This document shows positions 45,001 to 48,000 of a stretch of DNA of 64,000 bases, in pieces; the stretch's first letter is position 1, and each line of letters begins with the position of its first letter. This stretch comes from Escherichia phage PA27. Made by a program: the position numbers. Location of the stretch: the sequence record KP682380.1; one strand, given 5' to 3'.

Positions 45001-48000
45001 AACACAGATCGGCGTGAAGGCCATCATTGACCAGATCCGCGATGAGGCTGCAAAGTCGCCGGTTGTGTCCGAGCTGCGTAAAGAAATAAAAAACGCGCAG
45101 GGGCAGGCTGTAAAGGATGCTGCAATTAAGACAACCGAAGTTGTAGGGACTCTCAGGGAAGAAACGACAAGAACGATTGGTGGTATTGAAACCCGCATTA
45201 GCACACTGGATTCGTCAACCAGTGAATCGCTTAATGAGGTCGACAAGCGCATCACTAAATTGGATAAAGAAGGCGGTGAAGCTTTTCTTGCAATGTGGTC
45301 AAAAAAAGCGGGAGTTGATGGTATCACTGCGGGGATCGGGATTGTCGCCGGAAAAGACAGTGAAGGCAGGCCTGTAAGTCAGGTTGCAATTTCTGCGTCG
45401 CAGTTGTTTGTCTTTGACCCGAATAATCCGGATAACACAGCCTATCCGTTTGCGGTATCAGGTGGCAAGGTAGTGATCCCGAAAGCGATGATTTATGACG
45501 CGGTGATTGAAACACTGGTGTCGCGGAAGGTTGTGGCGGATGAGGTAAAAGCCGGGGTAAGTATCACTTCGCCAGTTATCCGGAGTGCCGTTATTCAGAA
45601 CGGAAACTTTCAGGTTGATTCTCAGGGTAACCTGAATATTGGAGGCCTTTTCAGTGTTACGTCACAAGGGCAACTGACAATTCGTTACTCTAATCAGAAT
45701 GTAGGACTGGTGATCCGCAATGATAAAATTGAGGTTTATGACCAGAATGGACGACTGGCTGTTCGCATAGGCAGATTACGCTGATCAGGAGGTGAGTATT
45801 GGAATACGGTTTTGCCATTTATAACAGAAATAACGTTAATGTTACGGGCGTGCTGACTCCAGTATTTTTCCTGGACAGATTTACAGCGGAGTCTGGCTCA
45901 AAGACGTACACTAATAAACCCGACGGGAAATCATTGCAGGCTGTATGTTGTTTATTTCCCTGGAATAATGTATTTGCGGATCGGAAAGTACCGAAGATAA
46001 CCATTAATGACAATACGGTGACGTGGTCGAATCTTGAGCAGGGTATGGGATCTTATATTTATACATTCTGGGGATAAGTGTTATGTACGGTTTGAGCATT
46101 ATGAAGCCGGATGGCAGCGTATGGATAAGTCCAGGTTTTACGCCGCAGTGTCTGATCAACAAAGGCACCATACCGGCGACTGAAAAGTCTTTTTTTAAAA
46201 CATCAATCCCGTCAGGCAAAAGTTGTTTTTTCTTTATCAGAACAGAGAAGAAGGCCGATGTCATGTACACGCATGAACAGATTGATGGATATCATGCACT
46301 AAGGCTTCATGTAATTGTCAGGGGAACGAACCCTGGTGTTACGACGGTTTATGCTTTCGCGAATATGGTTACTCCACCTTCTGAGTATGGTATCGCCATG
46401 TATAACCCGGACGGTGAGATGATTTATCATGGCGAAATGATGCTGCTTGACGCGAAGTTAATACCTGTTGATATCAAATTTGAAAAGGACCTTGGATATC
46501 CATGCGCAATCATGCCTGCACTGGTCGGGTATTATAACTGGAAAAGAACTCCTTATGATCGACCGATTTATACCACATCCACTGGTGCTACAGGAAATAA
46601 AATATATTCCTGTGAGCATTATTCCGGTGGTGCAACATGGGATATTCGAAAGCCGTATATAGATAAGGTCCTGGTTATTAATACATCAGTATATGATTAG
46701 TTGAAGCGAGTCTTTAATATTCATTTAAAATGTCTAAAAAGATGTATTATTAAAAAGTTTAGCGTGTTATCTGAATACAGGATATCTTAAATGAAGAGTA
46801 TAGCAACACTGGTTGTGTGTGCAATCTCCGGGATTGCCTGTGTAAATTTATCTGCACATGCAGCAGAAGGAGAGCATACAATTTCTCTGGGGTATGCGCA
46901 CTTTCAGTTTCCGGGACTGAAGGATTTTGTAAAGGATGCGACTGCTCATAACAGGGAGACTTTCAGTCATTTCGTCAACAGAAACTACTTTTCTTCATTG
47001 GGCGAATATACAGATGGTCGGGTCAGTGGATATGAAGGCAAGGATAAAAATCCACAGGGCATTAATATCAGGTATCGCTACGAGATAACGGATGATTTTG
47101 GCGTTATCACCTCTTTTACATGGACGCGTTCTCTCACTAACTCACAGACATTTATTGATGTGCAGTCAGCCGATCATACCAGGAAGATTAAGAATCCGGC
47201 AGCTTCTGCCAGAACGGATATCAGGGCGAATTACTGGAGTCTGTTAGCGGGGCCTTCATGGCGGGTTAATCAGTACATGAGTTTATATGCGATGGCAGGG
47301 ATGGGCGTTGCTAAAGTTAGCGCTGACCTGAAAATTAAGGACAATATTAACAGTAGTGGCGGATTTTCTGAAAGCAACAGCACGAAAAAAACCTCCCTTG
47401 CGTGGGCTGCAGGTGCACAGTTTAACCTGAATGAGAGTGTTACACTGGATGTGGCTTACGAAGGTTCCGGCTCTGGCGACTGGCGCACGAGTGGCGTTAC
47501 TGCTGGCATTGGCCTGAAATTCTGACCTGTATCCGGTAACCGTTTACTACCCGCTGTGATGGCGGGTTTTTTATTGCCCGTACAGGGCAAAAACCGTAAA
47601 TTATGCGTGGGTGCCTTTCGGCTGATGGCTGGAGGGTGAACCTGAAGGCCTGATGTGGAAAGGCCCCGAGTCAACTTAACGTTAACCCGAGGCCCTAACA
47701 CTTCGTACCTTAAGCAAGTAGAAGGTTAGCGCCTCTCTGTAAAAGGAGTCAAGCGCTATGTCGCAAAAATCGCTTATCACCGTCACAATTTGCATGACGG
47801 TTATCTTCACCATCTGGATGTTGCACGGTTCACTGTGTGAGTTCCGGCTGAATTTGTGGGGAGCGGAGTTTGCGGCGTTCTTACAGTGTAAGCAGTAGGA
47901 AAACCGCGACGGGGACGAGAGTCCCCGTCAACTGGTTGCTGAGGTTCAGCCGATATGGCACCCGTTTCAGGTGAGAGAATGAACGATAAAATTCTCTGGT

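What the first reader, a model, noticed from the sequence alone, without database searches (positions are those of the whole stretch)
47580..47898. Divergent Hok-like small toxin ORF embedded in the late region just after lom
A 46-aa ORF (47758-47898) with a good RBS encodes one TM helix followed by SLCEFR...GAEFAAF, which parallels the Hok/Gef signature (TM helix, SLCE[IV]R, EVAAF). It is much more diverged than the canonical hokD-type gene at 60558-60713. The 180-bp leader contains a palindrome (TTAACGTTAA near 47676-47690) and GC-rich inverted repeats, as expected for a structured type I toxin mRNA. This is a candidate type I toxin-antitoxin locus carried as a moron between lom and the virion-protein genes.
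Basis: partly seen in the sequence, partly recalled or inferred. Interest (0 to 1): 0.6.

Follow-up and report, generated by a model that had tools for sequence, protein, structure and literature searches.

The report
Second hok/sok toxin module in 933W
The small ORF after lom is a real Hok-family membrane toxin gene with its own structured mRNA and a predicted antisense RNA, a type of module that is already annotated, and this exact peptide has already been reported as toxic, so it is correct but not new.

Summary
The observation and the interpretation both hold. The window is Shiga-toxin phage 933W/Sp5. ORF 47758-47898 (46 aa) scores above Pfam's Hok/Gef threshold, and RefSeq names it "Hok/Gef family protein". 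The identical peptide is entry 72_1589 of a 2025-26 Hok catalogue, where it was cloned; the text reports all tested homologs toxic except three others.

The ORF sits in a self-contained unit of about 390 bp (47574-47963). That unit recurs in other prophages, islands and plasmids, in 1750 of 5426 complete E. coli genomes. It has the hallmarks of a hok mRNA:
- The 5' end pairs with the 3' end.
- An alternative 5' hairpin can form once the 3' end is removed.
- The antisense-target region pairs with the 3' UTR, and this pairing is supported by covariation.
- On the opposite strand there is a sok-like promoter and hairpin.

It is not the published hokW-sokW locus, which lies at 60558-60882 in the same phage.

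Two points remain open. This subfamily has no conserved mok leader ORF, which the R1 model requires. And its role in the phage is untested, although the published hokW-sokW deletion left it in place.

Verdict: supported, already known, low interest.

The parts
47549..47567 (+). Terminator-like hairpin plus T-run after lom. It marks the upstream boundary of the module's context.
   Evidence: Terminator scan. Homology to other copies of the module starts only downstream of it, at about 47573.
47574..47602 (+). Predicted hok promoter: -35 TTGCCC (47574-79), 17-nt spacer, -10 TAAATT (47597-602).
   Evidence: Read from the sequence. TTGCC and TAnATT are conserved in copies from unrelated contexts, while the sequence upstream is unrelated. 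The consensus scan did not call it (8 of 12 matches), so the assignment rests on position and conservation.
47609..47963 (+). Predicted full-length hok mRNA, about 355 nt.
   Evidence: The Rfam sok model's position 1 aligns at 47609. Homology among family members ends at GGCACCC, 47963. MFE -155.4 kcal/mol, z -6.5 against shuffles.
47609..47625 (+). 5' element (tac-like). GGGUGCC (47609-15) and UCGGCUGA (47618-25) pair with the 3' end in the full-length fold, or with 47655-47667 after 3' trimming.
   Evidence: Inverted repeats I9, I5 and I1. Folds of the full and truncated RNA. 96.8% and 97.8% of cells paired across 55 distinct sequences.
47655..47667 (+). ucb-like box (GGAAAGGCCCC). It is the alternative partner of the 5' end in the 3'-truncated RNA.
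   Evidence: I1. It is nearly invariant, so it is compatible with the model but not proven by covariation.
47689..47735 (+). Antisense-target stem-loop. The base is conserved (GAGGC/GCCUC and CUAAC/GUUAG) and the top is variable. In the full-length fold, 47707-47721 pairs with 47932-47945 instead.
   Evidence: helices 6-7. helix 7, with compensatory changes: GC 29 / AU 25, AU 28 / GC 26, UA 22 / CG 15.
47743..47748 (+). hok Shine-Dalgarno AAGGAG.
   Evidence: Sequence. GGAG is conserved in the family.
47758..47898 (+). hok CDS, 46 aa, Hok/Gef family (catalogue cluster 72, peptide 72_1589).
   Evidence: RefSeq WP_000078907.1 'Hok/Gef family protein'. Identical peptide in Table S2 of the Hok catalogue.
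47869..47878 (+). Segment within the CDS (UUUGCGGCGU) predicted to pair with the start-codon region 47758-47767.
   Evidence: helix 11: 99% paired but almost invariant, so uninformative on its own.
47908..47929 (+). 3'-UTR hairpin GACGGGGAC/GUCCCCGUC. It is the likely protective 3' end of the processed mRNA.
   Evidence: I4. helix 16, with compensatory changes at two pairs (AU 32 / GC 22; CG 25 / AU 23 / GC 5).
47946..47963 (+). 3' fold-back element (fbi-like): UCAGCCGA (47946-53) and GGCACCC (47957-63).
47723..47752 (-). Predicted sok promoter: -35 TTGACT (47752-47747), 18-nt spacer, -10 TAACCT (47728-47723).
   Evidence: TAACCT is conserved in 34 of 35 distinct family sequences. The same hexamer lies at the homologous position of hokW-sokW, and those are the bases mutated in the published promoter-less sokW construct. 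The consensus scan did not call it.
47655..47716 (-). Predicted Sok-like antisense RNA, about 60 nt. It has a variable single-stranded 5' tail (about 47716-47697) and a terminator-like hairpin (47696-47660).
   Evidence: Fold -30.9 kcal/mol, z -4.6. The hairpin contains G-U pairs that would be C-A mismatches on the + strand. Ends are inferred; no transcript data.

Best explanation
This is a complete hok/sok-type type I toxin-antitoxin module. It is carried as a self-contained moron between lom and the next late gene of Stx2 phage 933W/Sp5.

A promoter at 47574-47602 makes a stable, tightly folded mRNA of about 355 nt. Its 5' end (47609-25) is locked onto its 3' end (47946-63). In that form the antisense-target region (47707-21) is hidden by the 3' UTR, and the start codon is paired with codons 38-41, so the RNA is inert.

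Slow 3' trimming back to the 47908-29 hairpin would release the 5' end. The 5' end would then fold onto 47655-67, exposing the target stem-loop.

An antisense RNA of about 60 nt, made from TTGACT-18-TAACCT on the minus strand, pairs with 47655-47716. While it is being made, it silences or destroys the processed mRNA.

When that RNA disappears, the 46-aa Hok peptide is made, inserts into the inner membrane and collapses it.

**Shown here:**
- family membership of the peptide;
- the module boundaries;
- the RNA pairings, two of them supported by covariation;
- conservation of the antisense promoter hexamer and hairpin.

**Taken from the literature:** toxicity of the identical peptide.

**Inferred:**
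- the transcript ends;
- 3' processing;
- instability of the antisense RNA;
- how repression works without a mok ORF;
- the biological role. Candidates are helping lysis and phage release as hokW-sokW does, stabilising the prophage, or excluding other phages.
For: **Protein**
- Pfam HOK_GEF 33.2 bits against a cutoff of 22.
- PHROG 251 at 85.8 bits.
- The best NCBIfam model is HokA.
- All seven residues conserved in the catalogue's Hok logo are present: M1, C12, T14, L26, C27, E28 and E37.
- The ORF is intact in 56 of 57 variants, with dN/dS 0.2-0.6.
- The identical peptide 72_1589 was cloned, and it is not among the three non-toxic homologs.

**RNA**
- The Rfam sok model hits the leader at E 5.5e-6.
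- The MFE fold closes the 5' end on the 3' end, z -6.5.
- Truncated RNAs refold the 5' end onto 47655-67.
- Across 55 distinct sequences, 92.9% of cells are paired, against about 40% when the partners are slid. There are 25 pairs with changes on both sides, against 10.8 in shuffles.
- The long-range helix between target region and 3' UTR, and the 3' hairpin, both covary.

**Antisense**
- TAACCT is conserved in 34 of 35 sequences.
- The 5' tail is variable and the hairpin is strand-asymmetric.
- The same -10 hexamer was shown to be needed for sokW function in the paralogous locus of the same phage.

**Module**
- The same unit lies after ogr in P2-like prophages, between J and the tail-fibre gene in a lambdoid prophage, in a urease island and on a plasmid.
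- It is present in 1750 of 5426 complete E. coli genomes.
Against: - No transcript, processing or toxicity data exist for this locus in its native context.
- The simple promoter scan called neither promoter; each matches 8 of 12 consensus positions.
- The Rfam match is below the family's gathering score (35.6 against 59).
- There is no conserved mok ORF: 34 of 57 variants, including the window, have no leader ORF that reaches hok. Yet mok translation is required in the R1 paradigm. The predicted antisense RNA ends 27 nt upstream of the hok SD, so the repression step is unexplained.
- The tac/fbi, tac/ucb and start-codon helices are almost invariant, so they are compatible with the model but not proven by covariation.
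- The toxicity result comes from a preprint, and I could read the figure legend but not the figure.
Confidence: 0.85

Rival explanations
1. A late-gene lysis helper without real antisense control. The Hok peptide would simply be translated from the Q-antiterminated late transcript that reads through lom, acting like an accessory holin. The antisense features would be inherited remnants.
For: The gene lies in the late operon in the sense orientation. It has a strong SD of its own and no mok. The antisense -10 is weak, 3 of 6. HokW of the same phage does promote lysis and phage release after induction.
Against: The unit keeps its own promoter and its 3' fold-back element. It keeps the same boundaries outside late operons: at the P2 ogr end, in an island and on a plasmid. 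The antisense -10 hexamer is conserved in 34 of 35 sequences. The hairpin is more stable on the minus strand because of G-U pairs. The target region covaries with the 3' UTR, which only makes sense if access to it is regulated.
Confidence: 0.08
2. An inactive relic, like the hok loci of E. coli K-12 that were silenced by insertions, point mutations or rearrangement. The loss of mok would have made hok untranslatable.
For: No conserved mok ORF. In R1, mok start-codon and premature-stop mutations abolish Hok production. The Rfam score is below the gathering threshold.
Against: The ORF is intact in every variant and under purifying selection. One variant differs by 7 synonymous and 0 non-synonymous changes. 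The promoters, the 5'/3' pairing and the hairpins are conserved, with compensatory changes. The module is widespread and still moving between elements. The peptide itself is reported toxic.
Confidence: 0.06
3. A chance small ORF in an intergenic spacer.
For: It is not annotated in the original 933W and Stx2 phage I records.
Against: Pfam, PHROG, NCBIfam and Rfam all match. The frame is conserved across up to about 33% nucleotide divergence in the ORF.
Confidence: 0.01

Closest known systems
hok/sok (parB) of plasmid R1, the paradigm type I toxin-antitoxin system
   Same: - A small single-pass membrane toxin with the LCE motif and C-terminal AAF.
- An mRNA whose 5' end pairs with its 3' end (tac/fbi), with an alternative tac/ucb hairpin.
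- A target stem-loop built on GAGGC/GCCUC.
- A 3' hairpin.
- A cis-antisense RNA whose promoter lies between the target and the hok start, and whose hairpin is the complement of the leader hairpin.

The Rfam model built on such leaders aligns end to end, positions 1-157.
   Different: - Only 28% amino-acid identity, and 46 aa rather than 52.
- No mok ORF. Where R1 has the mok AUG the window has ACU, and an in-frame UAG (47727-29) lies in the invariant GGTTAGCGCC.
- It is carried on phages and islands rather than on a low-copy plasmid.
hokW-sokW of Sakai prophage 5 (Takada et al. 2021, PMC8621323), at window 60558-60882 on the minus strand
   Same: It lies in the same phage and has the same kind of module. 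The sok -10 hexamer (TAACCT) is identical and sits at the homologous position. Both are Hok-family peptides in PHROG 251.
   Different: - It is a different locus. The paper's primers encode MKQQKAM...DYESEK, 51 aa, which is 33% identical to this peptide.
- The two DNA sequences share no BLAST match longer than 11 nt.
- hokW keeps an in-frame mok, and its leader passes the Rfam threshold at 113.5 bits.
- hokW-sokW has been characterised experimentally; this locus has not.
HokA of E. coli K-12 (NCBIfam NF007290)
   Same: It is the closest named Hok. Shared motifs are MxQK, FT(I)WM, SLCE and AAFLxCK.
   Different: The score is far below the equivalog cutoff of 89 bits, so this is not a HokA orthologue. 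It falls in a separate 60%-identity cluster in the catalogue: cluster 72, against cluster 93 for HokA.
Hok cluster 72 in the Hok catalogue of Escalera-Maurer et al. (bioRxiv 10.1101/2025.08.07.668861)
   Same: The peptide is identical to entry 72_1589, which belongs to a high-abundance cluster. It was cloned as LRP157 for arabinose-induced toxicity drop assays.
   Different: That work deliberately analysed only the coding sequence and left Sok, Mok and the mRNA structure aside. The construct tested has synonymous differences from the window copy.

Membership tests
Hok/Gef protein family (Pfam PF01848) | Match to the family HMM above the curated gathering score | tested here: met
   33.2 bits against a cutoff of 22, E 4e-8, covering residues 8-44 and profile positions 6-42 of 42.
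Hok/Gef protein family (Pfam PF01848) | Peptide of about 50 aa with one N-terminal transmembrane helix and a short polar C-terminal domain | tested here: met
   46 aa. The hydrophobic window at residues 5-19 has mean KD 2.25. The polar tail carries C27 and C44.
Hok/Gef protein family (Pfam PF01848) | Conserved residues of the Hok logo (M1, C16, T18, L30, C31, E32, E41) | tested here: met
   M1, C12, T14, L26, C27, E28 and E37 are all present. C12, T14 and E28 are invariant in the alignment with R1 Hok, HokA, HokB, HokE and HokW.
Hok/Gef protein family (Pfam PF01848) | Kills or arrests cells when overexpressed | not testable with these tools
   From the literature only. The identical peptide 72_1589 was tested; the text lists only 19_179, 60_1482 and 69_1540 as non-toxic among 45 homologs.
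[quoted passage not shown] | Long-range pairing of the mRNA 5' end (tac) with its 3' end (fbi) | tested here: met
   GGGUGCC 47609-15 pairs with GGCACCC 47957-63, and 47618-25 pairs with 47946-53. 96.8% of cells are paired across the family, though the helix is nearly invariant.
[quoted passage not shown] | Alternative 5' hairpin (tac/ucb) once the 3' end is removed | tested here: met
   Truncated RNAs fold 47609-22 onto 47655-67. 97.8% of cells are paired across the family, nearly invariant.
[quoted passage not shown] | Cis-encoded antisense RNA gene (promoter plus hairpin) opposite the leader | tested here: met
   This covers sequence features only. TTGACT-18-TAACCT is present, with the hexamer conserved in 34 of 35 sequences. 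The hairpin is strand-asymmetric. The same hexamer has been shown to be functional in sokW. Expression itself cannot be tested here.
[quoted passage not shown] | Overlapping mok leader ORF to which hok translation is coupled | tested here: not met
   The window has no ATG, GTG or TTG ORF from the leader that reaches hok, and neither do 33 other variants among the 57. Where such ORFs exist, their starts are inconsistent (-130, -103, -46, -28, -23 and -5).
[quoted passage not shown] | Match to Rfam RF01794 (sok / hok leader) at the gathering score | tested here: inconclusive
   35.6 bits against a gathering score of 59. However, E is 5.5e-6 and the alignment is full-length, positions 1-157. The hokW leader in the same window scores 113.5.
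[quoted passage not shown] | Slow 3' processing of the mRNA, unstable antisense RNA, and RNase III cleavage of the duplex | not testable with these tools
   This needs northern blots, RACE and rnc mutants.
HokA equivalog (NCBIfam NF007290) | Score above the equivalog cutoff | tested here: not met
   38.4 bits against a cutoff of 89.
hokW-sokW of Sp5 (Takada 2021) | Identity with the published locus | tested here: not met
   The published primers map to 60558-60713 on the minus strand. This peptide is 33% identical to HokW, and the two loci have no DNA similarity.

The most novel reading that the evidence does not exclude
This Hok subfamily (catalogue cluster 72) may be a naturally mok-less hok/sok variant. 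Hok would then be translated from its own strong SD. The antisense RNA binds 27-100 nt upstream of that SD, so it would have to act without blocking a leader ORF: by triggering cleavage and decay, by freezing an inactive fold, or by competing with standby ribosomes.

Separately, because it sits in Sp5 alongside hokW-sokW, it may partly mask the phenotype of the published hokW-sokW deletion. If so, the true contribution of Hok toxins to Stx-phage release would be larger than the reported two-fold.
Probability: 0.4. Interest if true: 0.35.

Novelty: already known. Interest (0 to 1): 0.17.

Why it matters
As a discovery it matters little. Multiple hok genes in O157:H7 have been counted since 2006 (13 per genome). 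RefSeq already names this ORF, and the identical peptide has been tested for toxicity.

It has three practical uses.

1. The reference records for 933W and Stx2 phage I leave the lom-L0129 gap empty. Rfam at its gathering threshold also misses this leader. Phage-centred annotation can therefore overlook a toxin gene inside a Shiga-toxin phage.

2. Anyone studying hokW-sokW in Sp5 should know that a second, unrelated hok module remains in their deletion strains.

3. The lack of a mok ORF makes this abundant subfamily a convenient natural test of whether mok coupling is essential to hok regulation.

Tried and rejected
- **Same locus as hokW-sokW?** My first assumption, prompted by the 'MokW-like' product name in one phage record, was that this is the published hokW-sokW. 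Rejected: the paper's primers and its 51-aa HokW map to 60558-60713 on the minus strand.
- **A hidden mok ORF.** I looked for one with ATG, GTG or TTG starts in all three frames across 57 variants. None is conserved. One-nucleotide indels in the variable leader segment also argue against any conserved reading frame there.
- **SD pairing to the leader hairpin.** In the truncated-RNA fold the hok SD pairs with the apex of the leader hairpin (47674-84). Rejected as specific to the window: only 57-60% of cells are paired in the family (helices 4-5).
- **RNAalifold on the whole mRNA.** It did not recover the 5'-3' closure by itself, so I tested that closure explicitly on the alignment.
- **Consensus promoter scan.** It found nothing in 47400-48100. 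The promoter assignments therefore rest on homology and conservation.
- **Cross-talk between the two hok loci.** I found no complementarity beyond 11 nt.
- **Species-representative genomes.** The scan gave only two Salmonella loci plus three probable contaminants, so this family is narrow.
- **Expression data.** The supplements of a ciprofloxacin transcriptome of EDL933 do not list this gene.
- **Not run.** I did not run structure prediction. For a 46-aa single-helix peptide it would add nothing.
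Full report
**What is there.** The window matches Shiga-toxin phage 933W / VT2-Sakai (Sp5) and O157:H7 chromosomes at 100% identity. An AAGGAG Shine-Dalgarno ends 9 nt before the ATG. Upstream is an Ail/Lom gene (46791-47525; Pfam 113 bits) followed by a terminator-like hairpin (47549-67). Downstream is a hypothetical late gene. The palindrome TTAACGTTAA is at 47676-85, and several GC-rich inverted repeats are present.

**Is it a Hok?** Yes.
- Pfam HOK_GEF gives 33.2 bits against a curated cutoff of 22 (E 4e-8).
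- PHROG 251 gives 85.8 bits.
- The best NCBIfam model is the HokA equivalog, but the score is far below its cutoff (38.4 against 89). So this is a Hok, but not HokA.
- It carries every residue that a recent catalogue found conserved in more than 80% of Hok peptides.
- It has one hydrophobic helix.
- Across 57 distinct DNA variants collected from E. coli genomes, Salmonella and viral contigs, the frame is 46 codons in 56 and 45 in one.
- dN/dS against the window copy is 0.2-0.6. One variant has seven synonymous changes and no non-synonymous ones.

**It is already known.** RefSeq annotates the ORF as 'Hok/Gef family protein' (WP_000078907.1), and a Pharokka-annotated phage record calls it 'MokW-like host killing'. 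The identical peptide is entry 72_1589, in a high-abundance cluster, of Escalera-Maurer et al. (bioRxiv 10.1101/2025.08.07.668861). It was cloned there as LRP157 for arabinose-induced drop assays. The text says 42 of 45 tested homologs were toxic and names the three that were not; 72_1589 is not among them. Thirteen hok genes per O157:H7 genome were already counted in 2006. In contrast, the original 933W and Stx2 phage I records leave the 429-bp gap between lom and L0129 unannotated.

**It is not hokW-sokW.** Takada et al. 2021 (PMC8621323) characterised a hok/sok locus of Sp5. Their primers encode MKQQKAM...DYESEK, 51 aa. That is the other hok gene in this window, at 60558-60713 on the minus strand. 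The two loci share no DNA match longer than 11 nt. The hokW leader passes the Rfam threshold at 113.5 bits, whereas the leader studied here scores only 35.6 (E 5.5e-6, full-length alignment). So 933W/Sp5 carries two unrelated hok modules, and the published deletion strain still has this one.

**The unit and where else it occurs.** Homology to other copies begins at about 47573 and ends at 47963. The same unit, in the same orientation as the gene upstream of it, lies in several contexts:
- after lom in Stx-type prophages;
- after ogr at the end of P2-like prophages;
- between J and a tail-fibre gene in a lambdoid prophage;
- in a urease-bearing island of O157:H7;
- on a plasmid.

It is present in 1750 of 5426 complete E. 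coli genomes, with up to nine copies in one genome. Among species-representative genomes I found it only in two Salmonella, apart from likely contaminants. This is the behaviour of a moron.

**RNA anatomy, plus strand.**
- *Promoter and start.* TTGCCC-17-TAAATT (47574-47602) is conserved across contexts while the sequence further upstream is not. It would start transcription near G47609, which is where the Rfam model's first position aligns.
- *Full-length fold.* The 358-nt RNA 47609-47966 folds to -155.4 kcal/mol, z -6.5. GGGUGCC (47609-15) pairs with GGCACCC (47957-63), and UCGGCUGA (47618-25) pairs with 47946-53. This is the tac/fbi closure of hok mRNAs.
- *Hidden elements in that fold.* The antisense-target region 47707-21 pairs with 47932-45 in the 3' UTR. 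The start-codon region pairs with 47869-78.
- *After 3' trimming.* When the 3' end is removed in silico, the 5' end refolds onto 47655-67. A stem-loop built on GAGGC/GCCUC and CUAAC/GUUAG then forms around the variable segment.
- *Family-wide support.* On 55 distinct sequences the full-length structure has 92.9% of cells paired, against about 40% when partners are slid by 1-3 columns. It has 25 pairs with changes on both sides, against 10.8 in shuffles.
- *Which helices covary.* The informative ones are the long-range target/3'-UTR helix (GC 29 / AU 25; AU 28 / GC 26; UA 22 / CG 15) and the 3' hairpin at 47908-29 (AU 32 / GC 22; CG 25 / AU 23 / GC 5).
- *Which do not.* The tac/fbi, tac/ucb and start-codon helices are almost invariant. 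They fit the model but are not proven by covariation.
- *Caveat.* The structure was derived from the window sequence, which inflates the comparison with the slid controls.

**RNA anatomy, minus strand.**
- *Promoter.* TTGACT (47752-47), an 18-nt spacer and TAACCT (47728-23) would start an RNA near 47716.
- *Conservation.* TAACCT is conserved in 34 of 35 distinct family sequences.
- *Support from the paralogue.* The hexamer sits at the position homologous to the -10 of sokW. Takada's promoter-less construct changes exactly that hexamer, TAGGTTAG to CCGGCTCG on the hok strand, and loses antitoxin activity.
- *5' tail.* The first 20 nt or so of the predicted RNA are the most variable part of the module, as expected for a specificity-determining tail.
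- *Hairpin.* The tail is followed by a strong hairpin (47696-60; -30.9 kcal/mol for the 65-mer, z -4.6). Three of its pairs are G-U in most sequences, and these would be C-A mismatches on the plus strand. That asymmetry argues that the hairpin functions in the antisense transcript.
- *Limits.* The simple consensus scan called neither promoter, and no transcript data were available.

**What does not fit the paradigm.** In R1, hok translation depends on translation of the overlapping mok frame up to the hok SD. Here no such frame exists. The window and 33 other variants have no ATG, GTG or TTG ORF from the leader that reaches hok, and the ORFs seen in the remaining variants start at inconsistent places. 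One-nucleotide indels in the variable leader segment rule out a conserved frame. An in-frame UAG also sits in the invariant GGTTAGCGCC. The predicted antisense RNA ends 27 nt upstream of the hok SD. How it represses Hok therefore cannot be derived from sequence. Options are duplex cleavage and decay, blocking of a refolding step, or competition with standby ribosomes as in tisB/istR-1 (named from established knowledge).

**Most likely mechanism and role.** This is a working hok/sok-type type I module. A stable, closed mRNA is slowly activated by 3' trimming. A short antisense RNA neutralises the activated form. A membrane-depolarising peptide is made when the antisense RNA is lost.

The role is inferred. 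By analogy with hokW-sokW it may advance lysis and increase phage release after induction. Read-through of the sense-oriented late transcript would also collide with the antisense promoter, which is my own inference. Prophage stabilisation and exclusion of other phages are equally possible.

I considered three rivals and rate all of them low, given the conserved boundaries, promoters and frame and the compensatory changes:
- a late-gene lysis helper without antisense control;
- an inactive relic;
- a chance ORF.

**Verdict.** The finding is already known at the level claimed (a Hok-family type I toxin locus). The residual interest is modest: a mok-less architecture in an abundant Hok cluster, and an overlooked second hok module in the Stx2 phage used for the hokW-sokW work.

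Noticed in passing
window 60558-60882 (-): This is the published hokW-sokW locus of Sp5. The HokW CDS is at 60558-60713, an in-frame mok-type 70-aa ORF runs to 60770, and the leader matches Rfam sok at 113.5 bits. Its sok -10 hexamer TAACCT is the one mutated in the published promoter-less construct.
   Followed up: yes
L003:2461-2891 (E. coli SJ3 prophage) compared with window 47574-47963: The copy is a mosaic. The promoter plus leader is 97% identical and the 3' UTR 94% identical to the window, but the hok ORF is only 67% identical (54% at the amino-acid level). It looks as if the coding part had been exchanged as a cassette.
   Followed up: partly
window 47955-48356 (+): The RefSeq start of the downstream hypothetical gene (ATG 47955) lies inside the predicted 3' fold-back element of the hok mRNA. 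An ATG at 47979, preceded by GAGAG, looks like a more plausible start.
   Followed up: no
L094 (AF125520 933W) and L095 (AP004402 Stx2 phage I): These reference phage records leave the 429-bp lom-L0129 interval without any gene. AP004402 instead annotates an antisense 'ORF-15c' that overlaps the lom end and the hok leader.
   Followed up: yes
L009, L010, L012 (genome contigs): Copies of this E. coli/Salmonella module turn up in assemblies labelled Xanthomonas pisi (an 857-bp contig, 100% identical), a Planococcaceae MAG and Vagococcus sp. These are probably contamination of those assemblies.
   Followed up: no
window 47907-47930 (-): Read on the minus strand, the 3'-UTR hairpin of the hok mRNA is followed by GGTTTTCC, and the scan flagged it as terminator-like. 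It could stop antisense transcription entering from downstream.
   Followed up: no
window 7877-7935, 17144-17342, 19529-19645, 21904-22152, 23561-23820, 26500-26616, 63504-63592: Other Rfam matches above the gathering score: the lambda cIII thermoregulator, isrK/C4 antisense RNAs, two identical ALIL pseudoknots (two IS copies), three tRNAs, STnc100 adjacent to AsxR (next to stx2), and sRNA-Xcc1.
   Followed up: no
window 47612-47622 versus 60741-60731: There is an 11-nt perfect complementarity between the 5' element of this hok mRNA (UGCCUUUCGGC) and the hokW mRNA just upstream of its SD (GCCGAAAGGCA). BLAST gives E 0.07, so it is probably chance.
   Followed up: no
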